NCBI RefSeq assembly: GCF_900112475.1
Contig: NZ_FOLW01000008.1
Location: 146,535 to 210,534 of the forward strand
Direction: 5' to 3'
DNA length: 64,000 nucleotides
From: Pragia fontium DSM 5563 = ATCC 49100
GTDB taxonomy: Bacteria; Pseudomonadota; Gammaproteobacteria; Enterobacterales; Enterobacteriaceae
In this document: positions 50,244 to 59,921 of the stretch, one piece after another
How positions within the stretch are numbered: the first letter of the stretch is position 1
Layout of the letters: each line of letters starts with the position of its first letter
Translations under genes and position numbers: made by a program
Notes under the pieces: model-generated
Database searches by the model: none
What the model saw: only the letters and a program-made list of their open reading frames with translations
What the model was told of the DNA's origin: nothing

Positions 50244-50888
50244 ATGACGCTCTTCTTACAAAACTGTTTATCTTACCCGGTCATTATTTTCAGTGGTTTG
50301 TTATTAATTGTCCTGTTTTATTGGGTCTGTGCCGCCTTTGGCCTGTTGGACATTGATATTCTCAACATTGACAGTCCGGATATGAATATTGACAGCCTTG
50401 ATGCCTCAGCCTTAGCGGGCTGGCTAACCAAGCTCGGCCTTGCCGGTATCCCCCTCACCGTTATTATTACCTTAGTGACGCTCATTGGCTGGCTACTCAG
50501 TTATTTTAGCGTACACCTGATGCTGCGCTGGATAGAGACTGACTTTATTCGCTACTTATTAGGCACAGCCGCTTTCCTACTGATTGCGTTTATCGCCCTC
50601 CTGCTGACTTCAATGTTATTGAAACCATTGCGACCGATACTGGCCAATCATAATAAATCTAAAAGCGTGACCGGACTTATTGGCAAAATCGCTGAAGTTC
50701 GCTCTTCCATTGTCACCCTTCAACGTGGTGAAGCACTGATGGAAGACGGCGGAGGTGGTTTAATCCTACAAATACGCGCCCCGGAAGATGCTGGTATTGT
50801 CAGAGGCGATCGCGTGGTATTAATCCGCTATGATGCGGCAACACATAGCTATGAAGTGGTGAGTGAAACCGAGTTTAATCGGCTATAA
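50244..50888 (+). CDS. YqiJ/NfeD-like inner-membrane protein: multiple TM helices plus a C-terminal OB-fold-like soluble domain. Partner of the flotillin gene
   Basis: 214 aa. Three or four hydrophobic helices, then …TGLIGKIAEVRSSIVTLQRGEALMEDGGGGLILQIRAPEDAGIVRGDRVVLIRYD…, a β-rich NfeD-type C-terminus. Lies immediately upstream of the SPFH gene. Confidence 0.6.
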   Translation: MTLFLQNCLSYPVIIFSGLLLIVLFYWVCAAFGLLDIDILNIDSPDMNIDSLDASALAGWLTKLGLAGIPLTVIITLVTLIGWLLSYFSVHLMLRWIETDFIRYLLGTAAFLLIAFIALLLTSMLLKPLRPILANHNKSKSVTGLIGKIAEVRSSIVTLQRGEALMEDGGGGLILQIRAPEDAGIVRGDRVVLIRYDAATHSYEVVSETEFNRL

Positions 50889-51012: not shown

Positions 51013-53196
51013 ATGGTCATGGCAGATATAATGCCGTTCTTAACCATTATTGCATCGGTCATCATTGTAATTTTGGGCCTTTTTGGATTGTTTAAAGCGT
51101 TTTATATCAAAGTACCACAAGGCACCGCCCTGATCGTCAACGATATGTCATCGCAACCTAAAGTCCATTTTACCGGTGCGTTGGTTTATCCGGTCATTTA
51201 CAAAAAAGAGTTTATGCGCATCTCTTTGCTGACGCTGGAAGTTGACCGTCGTAGTAAAGATGGCCTGATCTGTAAAGATAACCTGCGTGCTGACATCACC
51301 GTTGCCTTTTACCTACGCGTGAATGAAACCACCGAAGACGTGTTAAAAGTGGCCAAAAACATTGGCGTTGAACGCGCATCGGATCATCAGGCGGTTAGTG
51401 CCTTGTTTAGTGCTAAGTTCTCTGAAGCACTGAAAACGGTTGGTAAGCAATTTGAGCTGTACAAGCTGTTTGAAGATCGGCAGAACTTCCGCGATCGCAT
51501 CATCGATGTAATTGGTAAAGATCTGAACGGCTATGCGCTGGAAGATGTCGCGATTGACTACTTAGAGCAAACGCCAAAGAGCTCACTGGATCCGAATAAC
51601 ATCTTCGATTCCGAGGGTATCCGTAAGATCACCGAGATCACCGCGATTCATAATATCGAAACCAACCAGAAAGAGCGCGATCAGGAACTGGCGATTAAAA
51701 AGAAAAACGTGGAAACCCGCGAAGCCAGTCTGGCCCTGGAACGCCAACAGGCCGATGCTGAAGCACGTCAACAGCGTGAAATTGAAAGCATCAGAGCTCG
51801 TGAAGCTGCTGAAACACTGCGCGTTAAAGAAGAAGAACGCCTGAAAGCGGAACAAGCCCGAATTCAAACTCAGCAGGAAATCGAAATCCGCGAAGAAAAT
51901 CGCCTGCGTGAAGTTGAAGTTGCTCAGCAAAACCGTACTCGTGCAGTCACCATCGAAATCGAGAAAGTCACCCGGGCAAAAGATCTGGAAGTGGTTTCTC
52001 GTGAGCGTGAAGTAGAACTACAACGTATTGAAAAAGAAAAAGCGTTGGAAGAAGAGCGCAAAAACATTGCTAACGTTATTCGTGAACGCGTTGCGGTCGA
52101 AAAAACCGTTGCTCAGGAAGAAGAACGAATTAAAGAAGTACGCATGATATCTGACGCCGATCGCCAGAAACAAGTCACCATCATTCAAGCTCAGGCAGAA
52201 GCCGAGCAAGAGTTGGTGCGTCAGGTGAAGCAAGCCGAAGCCGATGAAAACAGTGCTAAACATAAAGCTCAGGAAATCAGCACCATGGCTCAGGCTGAGC
52301 TTGAGGCTGCCGCTAAACAATCCGAAGCCAAAAAACGCATGGCGGAAGGTATCGAGGCAGAGCAGGCCGCTCTGGGTCTGGCAGAAGCCCGAGTCCGTCA
52401 GGCTCAGGCCGAAGCGGAAGAAAAAGAAGGCTTAGTGCTGGCTAACGTCACCGCAGAGAAACTGCTAGCAGAAGCCCGCGGTTCTCAGGAAAAAGGCTTG
52501 GCCGAAGCGAGAGTGAAAGAAGCTCAGGCTGCTGCCGCAGAGAAACAAGGTCTGGCTGAAGCTAAAGTACTGGAAGAAAAACTCACTGCTCAAGCGCGCG
52601 GTGATGAACAACAAGCTCTGGCGAAAGAGAAACTGGGTCTGGTTGATGCCAAAGTATTGGAAGAAAAACTGGTAGCTCAGGCTCGCGGTGAAGGTCAGCT
52701 AGGTTCAGCCCAAGCGGAAGTTGTACGTCAGCGTCTTAAAGCTGAAGCGGATGGTTTAACCGATAAATTTACCGCTATGGGTAACCTGAATACCACGGCT
52801 CGCGAGCACGAAGAGTTCCGTATGCAGTTGGAAAAACACTTTGAGCAAAGCATGGCTTCTATCGCCGCCAATAAAGAAATTGCCAGAGAGCAAGCCGATG
52901 TTCTGGCGGCGGCACTCAGCAAAACCAACATCGATATTGTGGGTGGCGACGGCAGCTTCTTTAATACCTTCTCTAAAGCCCTTAGCGTTGGTAAAGCCAT
53001 TAATGGCGTAGTAGACAAGAGCCCACTGGTACAAGACGTTGTGCAGAAGCTGTTAACCAGCGATAAAGCGGGTCAGAAACTCGATCTGGACGCGTTATTA
53101 CAAAACCCGGAAGTTCAGGCGTTGATTCAGCAATTCACCGCTGCCAAAACGCTACCGGCTGCTGCACCAAAAAATAACTACGATTCACAAGAGTAA
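51013..53196 (+). CDS. Flotillin-like SPFH (band-7) domain protein with an extended EA-repeat coiled coil (YqiK/FloT-like)
   Basis: 727 aa. N-terminal TM anchor (FLTIIASVIIVILGLFGLF), SPFH core (…YIKVPQGTALIV…ISLLTLEVD…DNLRADITVAFYLRV…), then about 400 aa of E/A/K/Q-rich coiled coil. Confidence 0.8.
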   Translation: MVMADIMPFLTIIASVIIVILGLFGLFKAFYIKVPQGTALIVNDMSSQPKVHFTGALVYPVIYKKEFMRISLLTLEVDRRSKDGLICKDNLRADITVAFYLRVNETTEDVLKVAKNIGVERASDHQAVSALFSAKFSEALKTVGKQFELYKLFEDRQNFRDRIIDVIGKDLNGYALEDVAIDYLEQTPKSSLDPNNIFDSEGIRKITEITAIHNIETNQKERDQELAIKKKNVETREASLALERQQADAEARQQREIESIRAREAAETLRVKEEERLKAEQARIQTQQEIEIREENRLREVEVAQQNRTRAVTIEIEKVTRAKDLEVVSREREVELQRIEKEKALEEERKNIANVIRERVAVEKTVAQEEERIKEVRMISDADRQKQVTIIQAQAEAEQELVRQVKQAEADENSAKHKAQEISTMAQAELEAAAKQSEAKKRMAEGIEAEQAALGLAEARVRQAQAEAEEKEGLVLANVTAEKLLAEARGSQEKGLAEARVKEAQAAAAEKQGLAEAKVLEEKLTAQARGDEQQALAKEKLGLVDAKVLEEKLVAQARGEGQLGSAQAEVVRQRLKAEADGLTDKFTAMGNLNTTAREHEEFRMQLEKHFEQSMASIAANKEIAREQADVLAAALSKTNIDIVGGDGSFFNTFSKALSVGKAINGVVDKSPLVQDVVQKLLTSDKAGQKLDLDALLQNPEVQALIQQFTAAKTLPAAAPKNNYDSQE
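52366..52710 (+). repeat. In-frame tandem repeats of about 120 nt (40 aa) encoding alternating GLAEARV(K/R)xAQAxAAEK and GLxxAKVLEEKLxAQARGxxQ units inside the flotillin gene
   Basis: Near-identical nucleotide stretches, for example gctaaagtactggaagaaaaactcactgctcaagcgcgcggtga and gccaaagtattggaagaaaaactggtagctcaggctcgcggtga. EA repeats are a known flotillin feature. Confidence 0.6.
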
Positions 53197-53204
53197 TGAA
53201 TAAG

Positions 53205-53295
53205 CCAGACTACTGCGGTTCACCGCAGTAGTCTGGTCGCTTCATGGCATTAATTAAGATAAGCCTATTATTTCCATGGGCTTATCTTAGTTAAT
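53205..53295 (+). promoter_or_regulatory. Two long stem-loops in the 116-bp flotillin/giant-gene spacer: a 14-bp perfect stem at 53205-53236 and a 15-bp stem with one mismatch at 53251-53295
   Basis: ccagactactgcgg-ttca-ccgcagtagtctgg with no strong U-tract after it. taattaagataagcc-(13 nt)-ggcttatcttagtta ends 18 nt before the giant-gene ATG. Confidence 0.55.
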
Positions 53296-53312: not shown

Positions 53313-56300
53313 ATGTCGCATGACCAGACAGGACGTTTGCGCCATGATACGGAACCCGAGTTAACGCTTATAAAGTCAACTTCGATCAAGGGAACGTTAA
53401 ACGCCATGTCAGATAGCCAAGTGAATAATCGCGAGCAAGAATTACTGGATAACGCCGTTGCTGAAGGCGGTGCCTATGATATTTTACGTAAGCGTTTATC
53501 TGAACAGGGTCAACAAATACACGACAAAGCGCACCAGCTAAACCAACGCCGTCTGGAAGAGTTTGGCAAAAGCCAGATGGATATCATTGGGCGTATGCGC
53601 ATCCGTACCGAAAATAACTGCGTCGCCCGGGATATTGTACGCGTTGGCGACTGGTTACTCTTCGGCTATAACGTTTTCATTGGACTCAAGAAAGAAACCC
53701 GCATTGAAGACGTATTTTCACTGTATCGACTAAAAGAAGAAAACGGTGAATATGATGTTGAGTCGGTTCCTTTAACCGGCACTTTCCTGAATATCACCAG
53801 CTTCGTTCAAGACTTTAATGAACTGTATACCTATTATAAAAACACCCAGTTACTGCAATTAGTTGAACGTGACGGCAAGCTGCTGGCCAGCTTTCAAATC
53901 GGTGAGCGCATTACCGATATTCGGGTGTTTCGCTGGTCCATTTCCAGTGATAAAACTGAAATAAAATATATTGATAACCGTGGTGAGCGAGATATCGCCC
54001 TGCCCCCGGCCTATGATTTTGAATGGCAAAAAACCACTCGCGAAAATGCGATTAACGGCCGCCATCCACACATGAACATTCTGGATACCGTCTTCGTTGA
54101 AACTATCGGTGGTGACCTGACCATCAAGTGTGAAAACAATACTGAAGATGGACTGGGAATTTACCGTGAGGCGGTGTTAGACAAAACCCAATCGCTGGAT
54201 GATGCACAGATTGAGTATGCCCAAACCGGTAGCCTGATTCTGCTAAAAATTCTGCCTTACCGAGAAGATACCTGGCGGTATCTGGTTTATAACACCATCA
54301 CTCAAACCGTACAGCGTATTGATGCGATTGGTTCTGCCTGTATTCAGCTTCCGGAAGATCACGGTATTATCTTCCCCGGTGGCTATTATCTACAAAGTGG
54401 TGAATACAAAACATTTGACCAGCCGATGGATGGAATGCGTTTCCGTCGTATTCGTCGATCGCCTAATGGCGAAGACGTGATGTATATTTTTTACGAACCC
54501 AATTTCGGTCGATTGGCGTTGTTTAACTACAACATGATTGAACGTAAATTGCAGAATCCGCTATTCGGCCATGGTTATGCCATGCTGGAAGATGGCCGTA
54601 TGGTTCTGTTTGAAGGTCAATCAGATGAGCCAACGCGTATTCACCCGATGCAGGTTTGGCAAACGCCATTCTATTCCGATGAATTTGCTGCGCTACAGCC
54701 GGCTAACAATAGCTTCTTTGGACGCATTGGCAACGCCGAGCTGGTACGCGGAATATCCGACCTCTACCATATTGCCAAAGAGATTGAACAGCAGCAGATA
54801 TCTTCACAGCTGTATGAAAAACTGTGCCAAGACGCTCGCCGACTGATCGATCTTTATTACTGGCTCAATGATGAACACAGCCTGAATGCCACTATTCTGC
54901 TGAAAGAAATCGCCAACACTGGCGAACTGGTACTGGATGAATACGAGAAAGTAGAAAGTATTCGTCGTCAGTCAACCAGAGCCATGAATGAGGCCACATC
55001 GCGTCAGAAACAGCTCTTGTCTCTGATGTTGCCTGACAGTTGGCATAACGCCCAGCAGTTTGTTGATGCGCTGAATGATCTCAGCGTGCAACGAGGTCAT
55101 CTGATTACCCTGCGCGACTACCGCTATATTGATTTGTCTCGTCTTGATGAGATGGAACAACAATTGGCTGAAAGTCAGGAACGCATCTCATTGGCTACGG
55201 CGGAGTTCCTTGCCAGCGAGCAAGCCCTGCAACCGTTCACCGATCAATTGCAGGCGTTAGATAAGCAAACTCAGGCCGCCGCCAACAGTTCACAACTGGT
55301 TGAGCCGATGGCCGGCATGGACAAGATGTCTGCTGATTTGGATATGCTCTCGAATTTGATGGCTTCACTAAAGTTCGAAGACACCACACAGCAAACCCAT
55401 ATCATCGAGGCGATTTCAGAAATCTATGCCCGCCTGAATCAGGCGCGAGCACGTTTACAGCAGCGCCGTAAAGAACAGAGTTCGGTGGAGTCTGTCGCCC
55501 AATTTGGCGCTCAATTTAAACTTTTCAGCCAGAGCATTACCAATGCGCTGACGCTGGCGACGGATCCTGAACGCTGTGACGAACAGCTCTCGCGTCTGCT
55601 GGTGCAGTTGGAAGAACTGGAAACCCAATTCAACGAACACGAAGAATTCCTCAATGACATTCTAAGCAAACGCGAAGAAATGCTGGAAACCTTCGAAACC
55701 CATAAGCAATCGCTACTGGATGAACGTCAACGCAAGTCACAGAATTTACAGGTTGCCGCTGAACGGCTGCTGGATAGCCTACAGCGCCGAACGGCCAAGT
55801 TCACTACTCTTGATGAGCTAAATGCGTTCTTTGCTTCCGACCCCCTGTCATTAAAAACCCGGGAAATTGTCGAGCGTTTACGCGCACTCAAAGACAGCGT
55901 TAAAGCTGACGATATTGATGCCAAATTTAAGGCTGCCCGCGATCAAGCGATTCGCAGCCTGCGCGATAAATCCGAAATATTTGAAGACGGTGGTAACGTA
56001 ATTAAACTGGGTCCGCGCCATCGTTTCAGTGTCAATACACAGGAACTGGATCTGACCATTTTGCCAAGAGGCGATCGACTATATCTGCACCTGACGGGTA
56101 CGGATTATCAAGAGCCTATTGATAGCCCTGAATTAGAAGCCCTGAAAGAGTACTGGCAAATATCGCTGGAGTCAGAATCGCCGGATATTTACCGGGCCGA
56201 GTATCTGGCCTACTCACTAATTTACGCCGCCAGCAAAGAATTGGATGGACTGAGCCTCGAGAACCTAAAAGCGCTGGTTAATAAACCAGAAGCGCTAGAA

Positions 56301-58343
56301 AAATTGGTCCGTGATTTTGCCTCACCACGCTATAAAGAAGGCTATGAGAAAGGCATCCACGATCACGATGCGGTAGCCATTTTACAGAAACTGATCCCCG
56401 TTAGGGAAAGTGCCGATCTGTTACGCTTTAATCCACATGCTCGCAGCATTGCCGTCCTTTTCTGGCAGCATGTTCATAGCCAAGAGTTACCCGCTCTTTG
56501 GCCAGAGCGAGCGCGTACCAGCATCAATATTCATCAGCTATTTCGTAACGATGCCGGTTTACTGGATCTTCAAGCTGAAATTGAAGCGGAACTCAGCCTA
56601 TTTCTTGAACAATACCCAATTGCCTGCCAGCCTTATCAACAATCACAGGCTGCTGAATACTTGAGCTTCGCATTAGGCCGAACACCGGTTGAATTCAGCT
56701 TTAGCAAATATGCTCGTACCCTGTCGGAAGGCTTACAGTCCCAGTTAGAAAAAGCCCATATGTGGGGCGACTTCAACCGCTCACAGCAGAATTTAGCCAA
56801 ACGCTGGTCACAACGTTGGTCATTGGCAGACAATTGGTTGCAAGGGCTTTGCTCTCTGCCAGAATATCAAAATCTAAAAAGCTATATTTCGGAAGCCATC
56901 GTCATCCTGCTGTTAGATAAAGGCATAAAGACCCGGTTTAGTGAAGTCGACTTGCACTTCACCGTGACAAACCTGATGGGTGAGCATCCTCTGATTCAAA
57001 ACCAATCCCTGACGCTTAGCCTGGATGATTATTTCAGCCGGATGCGTAAACAACGCAAGCAGTTCATTCCAGCCTACCATCGCTATCAGGAACTGCGTCA
57101 GGAAGTCTTAAGCCAGCAGAGAAATCAGCTGCGTCTGCATGAATTTAAGGCTCGCCCTCTCAGTTCATTCGTGCGTAATAAGCTGATCAATGACGTTTAT
57201 TTGCCGATCATCGGCGATAATCTAGCTAAACAAATTGGTGCGTTGGGTGAAGGAAAACGTACCGACCTGATGGGCTTACTATTAATGATCTCGCCGCCCG
57301 GCTACGGTAAAACCACACTGATGGAATATATCGCAAATCGCCTAGGCCTGATATTCATGAAGATTAATGGACCAGCCTTAGGTCACGATGTGTTGTCGCT
57401 GGATCCACAGCAAGCCCCGAATGCCACCGCCCGTCAGGAATTAGAGAAATTAAATCTGGCACTGGAAATGGGCAATAACGTTATGCTGTATGTCGATGAT
57501 ATCCAGCATACCAATGCCGAATTCCTGCAAAAATTCATCTCTCTTTGTGATGGTACCCGGCGAATTGAAGGGGTATGGAAAGGCAAGACCAAAACTTATG
57601 ATATGCGCGGGAAAAAATTCTGTGTCGTGATGGCGGGTAACCCTTATACCGAATCAGGCGAAGTGTTTAAAATTCCTGATATGCTGGCCAACCGCGCGGA
57701 TATTTATAATCTCGGCGAAGTTCTGGGTGGCATGGAAGAGGCATTTGCCCTGAGCTATATTGAAAACAGCTTAACCTCTAATCCGGTACTGGCACCGCTG
57801 GCACTGAGAAACATGAGCGATCTGTATTTATTTGTTGATAAAGCAATGGGTAAACCGTTCTCTAATAATGCGCTGAGCTATCAATACAGTGAAGCGGAGA
57901 TCGCCGAAATTGTTGCCATTCTTGAACGATTAATCACGCTGCGAGACGTGGTGTTAAAAGTGAATCAGCAATATATCGCCAGTGCTGCACAGTCAGATAA
58001 ATACCGTACTGAACCGAGCTTTAAGCTTCAGGGTAGCTATCGTAATATGAATAAACTGACGGAGAAAATTTCGGCGGTGATGAATCCGGCCGAAGTTCGC
58101 CGCATTCTTGACGATCACTATTTAGGTGAAGCTCAACTGCTAACCAGTGGCGCAGAAGAAAACTTATTAAAGCTGGCTGAAATCCGCAATATCATGTCAC
58201 CTCAGGAAGAGCAACGCTGGGGACTGATAAAGCGTGACTTTATGAAGAATAAAGCACTGGGCGGAGATAATGCGGAAGTTGGCGATCGCGTCGTAGCTCA
58301 ACTGGCCGATCTGGTAGAAAGTGTACAAGCCCTGAGGAATTGA
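53313..58343 (+). CDS. Giant (1676-aa) uncharacterised protein: N-terminal β-rich region, central coiled coil, and a C-terminal MoxR-class AAA+ ATPase module
   Basis: Single uninterrupted ORF. Walker A LLMISPPGYGKTTLMEY (about aa 1325-1335, nt about 57298-57318). Walker B MLYVDDIQH (nt about 57487-57510). Sensor-1-like VVMAGNP and arginine-finger-like LANRADIYNL, as in the MoxR/RavA family (ATxNP … LLDRF). The central region is heptad-rich (…LDEMEQQLAESQERISLATAEFLASEQALQPF…). The start codon is uncertain: 53313 or 53406. Confidence 0.6.
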   Translation: MSHDQTGRLRHDTEPELTLIKSTSIKGTLNAMSDSQVNNREQELLDNAVAEGGAYDILRKRLSEQGQQIHDKAHQLNQRRLEEFGKSQMDIIGRMRIRTENNCVARDIVRVGDWLLFGYNVFIGLKKETRIEDVFSLYRLKEENGEYDVESVPLTGTFLNITSFVQDFNELYTYYKNTQLLQLVERDGKLLASFQIGERITDIRVFRWSISSDKTEIKYIDNRGERDIALPPAYDFEWQKTTRENAINGRHPHMNILDTVFVETIGGDLTIKCENNTEDGLGIYREAVLDKTQSLDDAQIEYAQTGSLILLKILPYREDTWRYLVYNTITQTVQRIDAIGSACIQLPEDHGIIFPGGYYLQSGEYKTFDQPMDGMRFRRIRRSPNGEDVMYIFYEPNFGRLALFNYNMIERKLQNPLFGHGYAMLEDGRMVLFEGQSDEPTRIHPMQVWQTPFYSDEFAALQPANNSFFGRIGNAELVRGISDLYHIAKEIEQQQISSQLYEKLCQDARRLIDLYYWLNDEHSLNATILLKEIANTGELVLDEYEKVESIRRQSTRAMNEATSRQKQLLSLMLPDSWHNAQQFVDALNDLSVQRGHLITLRDYRYIDLSRLDEMEQQLAESQERISLATAEFLASEQALQPFTDQLQALDKQTQAAANSSQLVEPMAGMDKMSADLDMLSNLMASLKFEDTTQQTHIIEAISEIYARLNQARARLQQRRKEQSSVESVAQFGAQFKLFSQSITNALTLATDPERCDEQLSRLLVQLEELETQFNEHEEFLNDILSKREEMLETFETHKQSLLDERQRKSQNLQVAAERLLDSLQRRTAKFTTLDELNAFFASDPLSLKTREIVERLRALKDSVKADDIDAKFKAARDQAIRSLRDKSEIFEDGGNVIKLGPRHRFSVNTQELDLTILPRGDRLYLHLTGTDYQEPIDSPELEALKEYWQISLESESPDIYRAEYLAYSLIYAASKELDGLSLENLKALVNKPEALEKLVRDFASPRYKEGYEKGIHDHDAVAILQKLIPVRESADLLRFNPHARSIAVLFWQHVHSQELPALWPERARTSINIHQLFRNDAGLLDLQAEIEAELSLFLEQYPIACQPYQQSQAAEYLSFALGRTPVEFSFSKYARTLSEGLQSQLEKAHMWGDFNRSQQNLAKRWSQRWSLADNWLQGLCSLPEYQNLKSYISEAIVILLLDKGIKTRFSEVDLHFTVTNLMGEHPLIQNQSLTLSLDDYFSRMRKQRKQFIPAYHRYQELRQEVLSQQRNQLRLHEFKARPLSSFVRNKLINDVYLPIIGDNLAKQIGALGEGKRTDLMGLLLMISPPGYGKTTLMEYIANRLGLIFMKINGPALGHDVLSLDPQQAPNATARQELEKLNLALEMGNNVMLYVDDIQHTNAEFLQKFISLCDGTRRIEGVWKGKTKTYDMRGKKFCVVMAGNPYTESGEVFKIPDMLANRADIYNLGEVLGGMEEAFALSYIENSLTSNPVLAPLALRNMSDLYLFVDKAMGKPFSNNALSYQYSEAEIAEIVAILERLITLRDVVLKVNQQYIASAAQSDKYRTEPSFKLQGSYRNMNKLTEKISAVMNPAEVRRILDDHYLGEAQLLTSGAEENLLKLAEIRNIMSPQEEQRWGLIKRDFMKNKALGGDNAEVGDRVVAQLADLVESVQALRN

Positions 58344-58350
58344 TTGACCA

Positions 58351-58923
58351 GTGAAGCAGTGGATAAAACAGCGCATTAAACTACTTGGCATATTGGCGAT
58401 CGTCTTGATCGCCATTCAGTGCCTGAATACGCTGACTAGTGGTTATTTAAACCAGTTTGGTATACTTCCTCGTACCAGCCAAGGGTTAGTGGGTATTCTA
58501 TTTTCTCCTTTTCTACACGGTGACTGGGGACATCTGCTTAGCAATCTTCCGGTGCTATTAATTTTAAGCGGATTATTACTCAGCAATTCTATTCGCTACT
58601 ATATTTCAGCCAGTGTTTTTATCATTTTACTGGAGGGATTATTAGTCTGGCTATTTGCGCGTTCGGCTATTCATATTGGTGCCAGCGGCTGGATTTTTGG
58701 CTTATGGTCGCTATTGTTAATCAATGCCTTCACTCAGCGCAGAATACGAGATTTTATTTTGGCGCTGCTTATTTTAGTTTATTTTGGTGGCATGGCGTCA
58801 GGACTACTCCCCAGTGAACCAGGCATATCAACAGAAGGCCATATTGCAGGCGCCATTGCTGGAGGTGCGTTTGCTTTTATTAGTAGAAAATTCATGAGAA
58901 AAAAAAGTCACCACACCCCTTAA
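58351..58923 (+). CDS. Rhomboid-family intramembrane serine protease, minimal 6-TM core
   Basis: 190 aa with a GTG start 8 bp after the giant gene's stop. TM2 motif HGDWGHLLSNL (H-x4-H-x3-N). Catalytic GASGWIFG (GxSG) in TM4. Catalytic His in EGHIAGAIAGG in TM6. Confidence 0.75.
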   Translation: MKQWIKQRIKLLGILAIVLIAIQCLNTLTSGYLNQFGILPRTSQGLVGILFSPFLHGDWGHLLSNLPVLLILSGLLLSNSIRYYISASVFIILLEGLLVWLFARSAIHIGASGWIFGLWSLLLINAFTQRRIRDFILALLILVYFGGMASGLLPSEPGISTEGHIAGAIAGGAFAFISRKFMRKKSHHTP

Positions 58924-59237: not shown

Positions 59238-59921
59238 ATGGAAAATAAAGAACTGGAGTTATATCTGAAGAGTACGCTGGCTGATTTAACATTAAGCCAC
59301 AGTGAACGTACTCAGTTAAGAGAATTAAGCCAATCCTTAAGTACTGAACAATCCGGCTTTATGCGTAATCTTGCCTTTGATTTAGTCAGAGAACAGCTTG
59401 ATACCGCACCTCAAAACCTCCTGCCAGTATTAAAATGGTTAGAAACCGTCATAAAGACCTTCGATATTGCCAACCAACAGAAGCAAAGCCACTCTACCGC
59501 CTACTTCTCACCAGGAGAAACCTGTCGGGAAAAAATTCGATCAATGCTTTCTCAGGCGACGAAAAAAGTCGATATATGCGTTTTTACTATTGCCGATGAC
59601 GCTATCACCGAATCTATCCTCAGTGCCCACCAGCGCCAGGTTCAGATACGTATTATCACTGATAATGATAAATCAGAAGATCAGGGAAGTGATATTGATT
59701 ACCTGCAACATAAAGGGATCTCCATCGTTACCGATAATAGTCCTTATCATATGCACCATAAATTCGCTATTTTCGATGATACTTACCTGCTAAACGGCAG
59801 TTTTAACTGGACCAGAAGCGCATCGCTGCACAACTGCGAAAATATTCTGATCACCGATTCCACTGAACTTTTAACCCGTTATCAACAAGAGTTTATTAAG
59901 CTGTGGCAGAGGTTTAGTTGA
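59238..59921 (+). CDS. Phospholipase-D superfamily protein with a single HKD motif (Nuc / MitoPLD-like), cytoplasmic, with an N-terminal helical extension of about 100 aa
   Basis: 227 aa. HKD signature HHKFAIFDDTYLLNGSFNWTRSA (H-x-K-x4-D … GSxN). No signal peptide. An A-GG-TA SD precedes the ATG. Confidence 0.7.
   Translation: MENKELELYLKSTLADLTLSHSERTQLRELSQSLSTEQSGFMRNLAFDLVREQLDTAPQNLLPVLKWLETVIKTFDIANQQKQSHSTAYFSPGETCREKIRSMLSQATKKVDICVFTIADDAITESILSAHQRQVQIRIITDNDKSEDQGSDIDYLQHKGISIVTDNSPYHMHHKFAIFDDTYLLNGSFNWTRSASLHNCENILITDSTELLTRYQQEFIKLWQRFS

What the first reader, a model, noticed from the sequence alone, without database searches (positions are those of the whole stretch)
53313..58343. 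Architecture of the 1676-aa protein: the MoxR-like AAA+ signature is confined to the last roughly 400 residues
Reading the translation directly, the only canonical motif set is at the C-terminus: Walker A GYGKTT, Walker B hhhhDDIQH, sensor-1 AGNP and an arginine-finger-like NRAD. Their spacing matches the RavA/MoxR/midasin helix-2-insert clade. MoxR ATPases normally pair with a separate vWA protein, and none is encoded here. Instead the ATPase is fused to about 1250 aa of unannotatable sequence. The N-terminal 480 aa is rich in G/D/W/Y turns and looks β-propeller-like or otherwise β-rich. Residues about 500-900 are heptad-rich coiled coil. Such a fusion would represent a new MoxR partner logic, with substrate- or adaptor-binding domains in cis.
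Basis: seen in the sequence. Interest (0 to 1): 0.7.

Follow-up and report, generated by a model that had tools for sequence, protein, structure and literature searches.

The report
Flotillin-linked giant MoxR-like AAA+ ATPase
This gene encodes a very large, unusually conserved bacterial ATPase (a β-rich head, a long helical arm and one MoxR/dynein-like motor domain) that nearly always sits directly downstream of a flotillin membrane-scaffold gene; the family and its layout are already catalogued and published, but its function has never been tested.

Summary
The ORF and all four motifs are real. The true start is probably M32 (window 53406), which gives the 1645-aa Pragia fontium "DNA repair ATPase" (100% identical). 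The N-terminus is not unannotatable. Pfam DUF3686 covers aa 70-516 (685 bits) and DUF7902 covers aa 637-721.

AlphaFold models (pLDDT 82-83) show, in order: N-terminal helices, a β-rich propeller-like domain of about 28 strands, a heptad-rich helical array of about 440 aa, a small β domain, a second helical domain, one AAA+ module, and a helical tail.

No vWA domain is encoded in the window.

The P. aeruginosa orthologue is, by synteny, PA3728/BacE. Ravi et al. 2024 already described this [quoted passage not shown]. Most likely it is an ATP-driven remodeller of the flotillin scaffold. The architecture is already known; the function is untested.

The parts
50244..50888 (+). YqiJ/YuaF (short NfeD)-like membrane protein, 214 aa; mis-named 'UbiH' in GenBank
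   Evidence: A homologue lies upstream of the ATPase in 73/81 related loci. It is 26% identical (E 5e-14) to the equivalent planctomycete gene. GenBank name. This class is described in PMC11237479.
51013..53196 (+). YqiK-type flotillin (TM + SPFH/band-7 + long coiled coil + flotillin C-terminus), 727 aa
   Evidence: Annotated 'flotillin family protein / YqiK'. It is 49% identical to a planctomycete protein with a Pfam Band_7 hit that sits in the same position. It lies directly upstream of the ATPase in 77/81 loci; the other 4 are truncated. It has no Pfam hit itself.
53205..53289 (+). Two stem-loops in the flotillin-ATPase intergenic region (53205-53236, 14 bp; 53257-53289, 10 bp)
   Evidence: The 44-nt window 53196-53239 containing the first hairpin folds at -29.2 kcal/mol. 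Stable hairpins recur at this position in related loci (mean best 44-nt window -24.1 against -19.3 kcal/mol in coding controls).
53406..58343 (+). DUF3686-family AAA+ ATPase ('DNA repair ATPase', BacE/PA3728 orthologue by synteny), 1645 aa from the likely start (the ORF opens at 53313)
53406..53570 (+). N-terminal helical segment (ORF aa 32-86)
   Evidence: AlphaFold model mbdd225c12cd7, helices 4-18 and 23-53.
53571..54671 (+). β-rich, propeller-like domain (ORF aa 87-453; core of Pfam DUF3686)
   Evidence: About 28 strands at pLDDT 86-93. Foldseek hits to 6- and 7-bladed propellers have probability 1.0 but low TM (0.25-0.33). Pfam DUF3686 scores 685 bits. Identity to distant-phylum homologues is 47%.
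54672..55985 (+). Heptad-rich helical array (ORF aa 454-891; includes DUF7902 at aa 637-721)
55986..56123 (+). Small conserved β domain (ORF aa 892-937)
   Evidence: Five strands. Identity to distant homologues is 55%.
56124..57149 (+). Second helical domain plus a pre-AAA β element and long helix (ORF aa 938-1279)
   Evidence: This is the least conserved part (27-29% identity).
57150..58145 (+). AAA+ module (ORF aa 1280-1611): αβα core, PS1 β-hairpin (aa 1417-1430), helical lid
57294..57317 (+). Walker A PPGYGKTT (aa 1328-1335)
   Evidence: K1333 and T1334 are invariant in 103 sequences.
57486..57509 (+). Walker B LYVDDIQH (aa 1392-1399), with an invariant Asp-Asp instead of Asp-Glu
57633..57644 (+). 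Sensor-1 AGNP (N1443)
   Evidence: Immediately follows β4 in the model; invariant.
57690..57701 (+). Candidate arginine finger NRAD (R1461)
   Evidence: Invariant. It aligns with the SRA motif of RarA in hhalign.
58029..58043 (+). Candidate sensor-2 motif QGSYR (R1577)
   Evidence: Invariant G-S-Y-R at the start of a lid helix. The assignment rests on resemblance to the MoxR GxSPR motif (my own knowledge) and is inferred.
58146..58340 (+). C-terminal helical tail (aa 1612-1676)
   Evidence: the last ~30 residues have low confidence.
58351..58923 (+). Rhomboid-family intramembrane protease gene, 8 nt after the ATPase stop
   Evidence: Pfam Rhomboid 66.7 bits. Found at this position in 19 of 81 related loci (one further copy lies upstream on the opposite strand), and a rhomboid gene also lies in the pQBR103 cluster, next to pspA.
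59238..59921 (+). Single-HKD PLD-superfamily protein (BacF-like)
   Evidence: Pfam PLDc_2 105 bits, with NucT/DrmC-like hits. Found downstream in 24/81 loci. This is BacF (PA14_16200; PA3727 by my numbering) in P. aeruginosa.

Best explanation
The gene is the Pragia fontium orthologue of the DUF3686 'DNA repair ATPase' family. P. aeruginosa PA3728/BacE belongs to the same family (assigned by gene order).

**What it is (shown).** It is a large soluble protein built from the following parts, in order:
- N-terminal helices;
- a β-rich propeller-like head;
- a small β domain;
- a second helical domain;
- one C-terminal AAA+ module whose fold is closest to CbbQ/NorQ-type MoxR ATPases, midasin and dynein.

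It is encoded in a conserved unit with a YqiJ/NfeD-like membrane protein and a YqiK-type flotillin.

**How it most likely works (inferred).**
- The AAA+ modules form a ring.
- The cis-fused head and arm take the place of the vWA adaptor that canonical MoxR proteins use in trans.
- They dock onto the cytoplasmic side of the flotillin (SPFH) assembly or its clients.
- ATP binding and slow hydrolysis then assemble, remodel or dismantle that scaffold during envelope stress.
- PspA, a PLD-type hydrolase and a rhomboid act as optional accessories.
- The 'DNA repair' name has no support.
For: **Identity and family.**
- Pfam DUF3686 + DUF7902 + AAA.
- 100% identical to the P. fontium protein and 68% identical over 98% of its length to the P. 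aeruginosa protein.
- More than 1000 clusters at 50% identity reach E of 1e-10 or better; 1392 reach 1e-3. The full-length members among the 150 listed are colinear down to 27% identity.

**Likely active.** All nucleotide-site residues are invariant in 103 sequences, and the AAA core is 79% identical across phyla.

**Partner.**
- A flotillin gene lies directly upstream in 77/77 informative loci, and a YqiJ-like gene in 73.
- The same arrangement occurs in Bacteroidota, Planctomycetota, Actinomycetota and on pQBR103.
- PspA and DUF2170 are present in 41-43 loci, PLD in 24 and rhomboid in 20.

**Experiments in P. aeruginosa.**
- RT-PCR shows co-transcription of bacD, PA14_16190 and PA14_16200.
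- The protein rises 8.9-fold together with the other Bac proteins in a bacA mutant (PMC10948618).
- PA3728-PA3732 are induced on phage infection (PMC12041424).

**Published comparative genomics.** Ravi et al. link this ATPase to band-7/flotillin, YqiJ and PspA (PMC11237479).
Against: - There is no direct evidence of a physical or functional interaction between the ATPase and flotillin.
- The Sorangium homologue has no flotillin-sized gene directly upstream on the same strand.
- A paFlo3 (flotillin) deletion in P. aeruginosa has only mild phenotypes (PMC13086221).
- Sequence profiles do not place the module in MoxR.
- The helix-2 insert is not a clear β-hairpin in the model.
- The Walker B Asp-Asp suggests slow, switch-like hydrolysis rather than a motor.
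- The β2-α2 loop carries no aromatic residue, so threading is unlikely.
- Ring formation was not tested.
Confidence: 0.5

Rival explanations
1. It is a canonical MoxR-type chaperone that works with a vWA/MIDAS protein encoded elsewhere in the genome. On this reading the flotillin neighbourhood reflects co-regulation only.
For: The closest structural neighbours, CbbQ and NorQ, both need vWA partners (CbbO, NorD) (partner requirement from my own knowledge). Only 64 kb of the genome was available.
Against: No vWA was found in any window ORF of 150 aa or more, and none appears among the genes listed around the eight related loci whose gene tables were read. MoxR-vWA pairs are normally adjacent (my own knowledge). 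The 1250-aa cis extension is colinear in every full-length relative seen and 27-55% identical across phyla, which fits it being the adaptor itself.
Confidence: 0.1
2. It is a membrane-protein quality-control machine. The flotillin corrals damaged membrane proteins, the rhomboid clips them and the AAA+ extracts them, by analogy with SLP2-PARL-YME1L, RHBDL4-erlin-p97 or HflKC-FtsH.
For: A rhomboid gene starts 8 nt downstream here and is present in 20/81 loci and on pQBR103. There are eukaryotic precedents for SPFH + rhomboid + AAA+ assemblies (PMC9437926).
Against: The β2-α2 segment, the pore-loop-1 position by analogy with classical AAA+ (GPALGHDVLSLDPQQAPN), has no aromatic residue. No protease domain or partner is conserved. 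The rhomboid is absent from three quarters of loci. MoxR-like modules are not known unfoldases (my own knowledge).
Confidence: 0.12
3. It is an anti-phage or conflict system in which a large ATPase senses infection and a PLD nuclease or membrane effectors kill the cell.
For: PA3728-PA3732 are induced by phage infection. The PLD resembles DrmC, DpdK and Mko nucleases. Copies occur on megaplasmids.
Against: The ATPase, flotillin, YqiJ-like protein and rhomboid have no PADLOC hit. Conservation is extreme (53-89% identity over 1640 aa across orders). The gene sits in a core-chromosome context with normal GC. The PLD is present in only 24/81 loci. None was found in phages.
Confidence: 0.07
4. It is a DNA repair ATPase, as the database name says.
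For: The Pfam and NCBI name. A PLD/Nuc-like gene is adjacent, and recJ and yaeQ lie nearby in Pseudomonas.
Against: No DNA-binding, helicase or nuclease domain was detected. The yaeQ synteny is seen in only 10 of 81 loci, all Pseudomonas-type. The invariant partners are membrane proteins. No paper links DUF3686 to repair.
Confidence: 0.03

Closest known systems
[quoted passage not shown] 2024)
   Same: It is an orthologue: 68% identity over 98% of its length, the same Pfam domains, and the same YqiJ-like, flotillin, ATPase (then PLD) gene order. The BacE/PA3728 label for the P. aeruginosa protein rests on gene order.
   Different: The Pragia operon is the abbreviated form. It lacks the DUF2170 (CesT-like) and PspA genes upstream and has a rhomboid gene inserted before the PLD. 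No σ54-type promoter was found upstream.
CbbQ / NorQ (MoxR-family AAA+ of the CbbQO and NorQD systems)
   Different: There is no vWA/MIDAS partner. Sequence identity is only 13-16%, and the Pfam AAA_5 score is marginal. Walker B is DD rather than DE. A 1250-aa cis extension precedes the AAA+ module, and a long insertion lies between β5 and sensor 2.
Midasin/Rea1 and dynein heavy chains
   Different: This protein has one AAA+ module per chain rather than six concatenated modules, and no MIDAS or microtubule-binding domain. It is bacterial and linked to flotillin.
HflK/C-FtsH, SLP2-PARL-YME1L and erlin-RHBDL4-p97 assemblies
   Same: In each, an SPFH scaffold is paired with an AAA+ enzyme, sometimes with a rhomboid (PMC9437926; HflKC-FtsH from my own knowledge).
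   Different: Those AAA+ partners are classical-clade unfoldases or proteases with aromatic pore loops. This one is MoxR-like, soluble and has no protease.
MoxR-vWA-β-propeller ternary conflict systems (Kaur et al. 2020; Pfam bpMoxR)
   Same: Both combine a MoxR-type ATPase with a β-propeller.
   Different: There is no bpMoxR Pfam match and no vWA. The propeller is fused in cis, the gene sits in a core chromosomal context, and the neighbours are membrane scaffold genes.

Membership tests
AAA+ superfamily | Walker A GxxxxGK[ST] | tested here: met
   PPGYGKTT at aa 1328-1335. K1333 and T1334 are invariant in 103 sequences.
AAA+ superfamily | Walker B hhhhDE with a catalytic glutamate | tested here: inconclusive
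   LYVDD: the first Asp is present, but the Glu position is an invariant Asp (D1396) in all 103 sequences. Hydrolysis competence was not tested.
AAA+ superfamily | αβα core plus helical lid, sensor 1, arginine finger, sensor 2 | tested here: met
MoxR family / helix-2-insert (pre-sensor-II) clade | Closest structural neighbours are MoxR, midasin and dynein modules | tested here: met
MoxR family / helix-2-insert (pre-sensor-II) clade | Pre-sensor-1 β-hairpin | tested here: met
   Strands at aa 1417-1422 and 1425-1430 lie between α3 and β4. They appear as an 18-residue insertion relative to RarA in hhalign.
MoxR family / helix-2-insert (pre-sensor-II) clade | β-hairpin insert in helix 2 | tested here: inconclusive
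   The β2-α2 segment (aa 1353-1370) is 18 residues: a short helix, a loop and a helical turn at pLDDT above 90, with no hairpin predicted. Model coordinates could not be inspected.
MoxR family / helix-2-insert (pre-sensor-II) clade | Sequence-profile membership (Pfam AAA_3, AAA_5 or bpMoxR at family-typical scores) | tested here: not met
   AAA_5 scores 24 bits (cut-off 22), against RavA 98, YehL 116 and ClpA-D2 66. There is no AAA_3 or bpMoxR hit. hhalign probability is 8% to RavA, 29% to YehL and 93% to RarA.
MoxR family / helix-2-insert (pre-sensor-II) clade | Adjacent vWA/MIDAS partner protein | tested here: not met
   No vWA Pfam hit in any window ORF of 150 aa or more. No DxSxS motif in the protein. 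The conserved neighbours are flotillin, YqiJ-like, PspA, DUF2170, PLD and rhomboid genes. The rest of the genome could not be tested.
DUF3686 'DNA repair ATPase' / BacE orthologous group | Full-length DUF3686 + DUF7902 + C-terminal AAA, colinear over about 1600-1900 aa | tested here: met
   DUF3686 matches positions 3-448 of 448 at 685 bits, and DUF7902 matches 1-85 of 85 at 93 bits. Coverage of the P. aeruginosa protein is 98% at 68% identity. Full-length members among the listed relatives are colinear down to 27% identity.
Flotillin / YqiJ / AAA+ (PspA-associated) operon of Ravi et al. 2024 | [quoted passage not shown] | tested here: met
   Both lie directly upstream on the same strand. They are conserved in 77 and 73 of 81 loci.
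Flotillin / YqiJ / AAA+ (PspA-associated) operon of Ravi et al. 2024 | CesT/Tir-like (DUF2170) and PspA dyad upstream | tested here: not met
   No PspA_IM30 or DUF2170 hit in any window ORF. This is the 'abbreviated' operon form that the paper describes. The dyad is present in 41-43 of 81 related loci.
Known anti-phage defence systems (PADLOC) | Match to a PADLOC protein model for the core components | tested here: not met
   There are no hits for the ATPase, flotillin, YqiJ-like protein or rhomboid. Only the PLD has weak hits, to DrmC, Mko and DpdK models.
DNA repair enzymes | A DNA-binding, nuclease or helicase domain, or a repair-gene context | tested here: not met
   No such Pfam or NCBIfam domain was found. 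The only hit is a 44-residue Walker A match to RuvB.

The most novel reading that the evidence does not exclude
The family may be a single-chain, homo-oligomeric analogue of midasin/dynein-type machines. A MoxR-like ring would carry six helical arms, each tipped with a β-propeller-like head. The heads would grip the cytoplasmic cap of a flotillin (SPFH) cage and open or dismantle it under membrane stress. That would make it the first dedicated 'uncoating' ATPase for a bacterial SPFH scaffold, with the cis head replacing the vWA adaptor and with the rhomboid and PLD acting as cage-associated effectors.
Probability: 0.25. Interest if true: 0.75.

Novelty: already known. Interest (0 to 1): 0.4.

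Why it matters
What bacterial flotillins do, and how SPFH scaffolds are assembled and taken apart, are still open questions. This ATPase is encoded directly downstream of a flotillin gene across many bacterial phyla. Its AAA core is 79% identical between Enterobacterales and distant phyla. In P. aeruginosa the orthologue assigned by gene order is co-transcribed with flotillin and PspA genes, but no experiment has addressed its function.

- the motor is structurally MoxR/dynein-like but has no vWA partner;
- its Walker B is an invariant Asp-Asp;
- the 'DNA repair' name is unsupported.

These give mutants to make and interactions to test. They also correct a misleading annotation that appears on nearly every named homologue seen in the two protein searches. 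The finding is not a discovery, because the architecture and operon are already in Pfam, RefSeq and the literature.

Tried and rejected
- **Sequence searches against PDB.** The full protein, the C-terminal family profile and the Walker B-to-sensor-2 fragment were all tried. They gave only 35-residue Walker A matches to p97, NVL and RuvB, or nothing, so they cannot assign a clade.
- **hhalign of the family profile against single MoxR sequences (RavA, YehL).** Probabilities were low. RarA scored higher, which reflects generic AAA+ similarity. I take this as evidence against sequence-level MoxR membership, but not against the structural placement.
- **Pfam AAA_5 hit as evidence for the dynein/MoxR clade.** Rejected, because ClpA-D2 in the same window scores higher.
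- **Literature search for 'DUF3686'.** It found nothing.
- **σ54 promoter search upstream of the operon.** No hit fell upstream of the operon, and window-wide matches did not exceed chance.
- **PADLOC.** No system was identified.
- **First heptad threshold (0.75).** It was too strict and returned nothing, so the test was re-run at 0.55-0.65 with a shuffle control.
- **Regex scan for a MoxR comparator in the fetched loci.** None was found.
- **'Island' idea.** Rejected: GC is normal, and the flanks are core genes such as pflB, dmsABC, serS, ftsK, clpA, hcp and lpoB.
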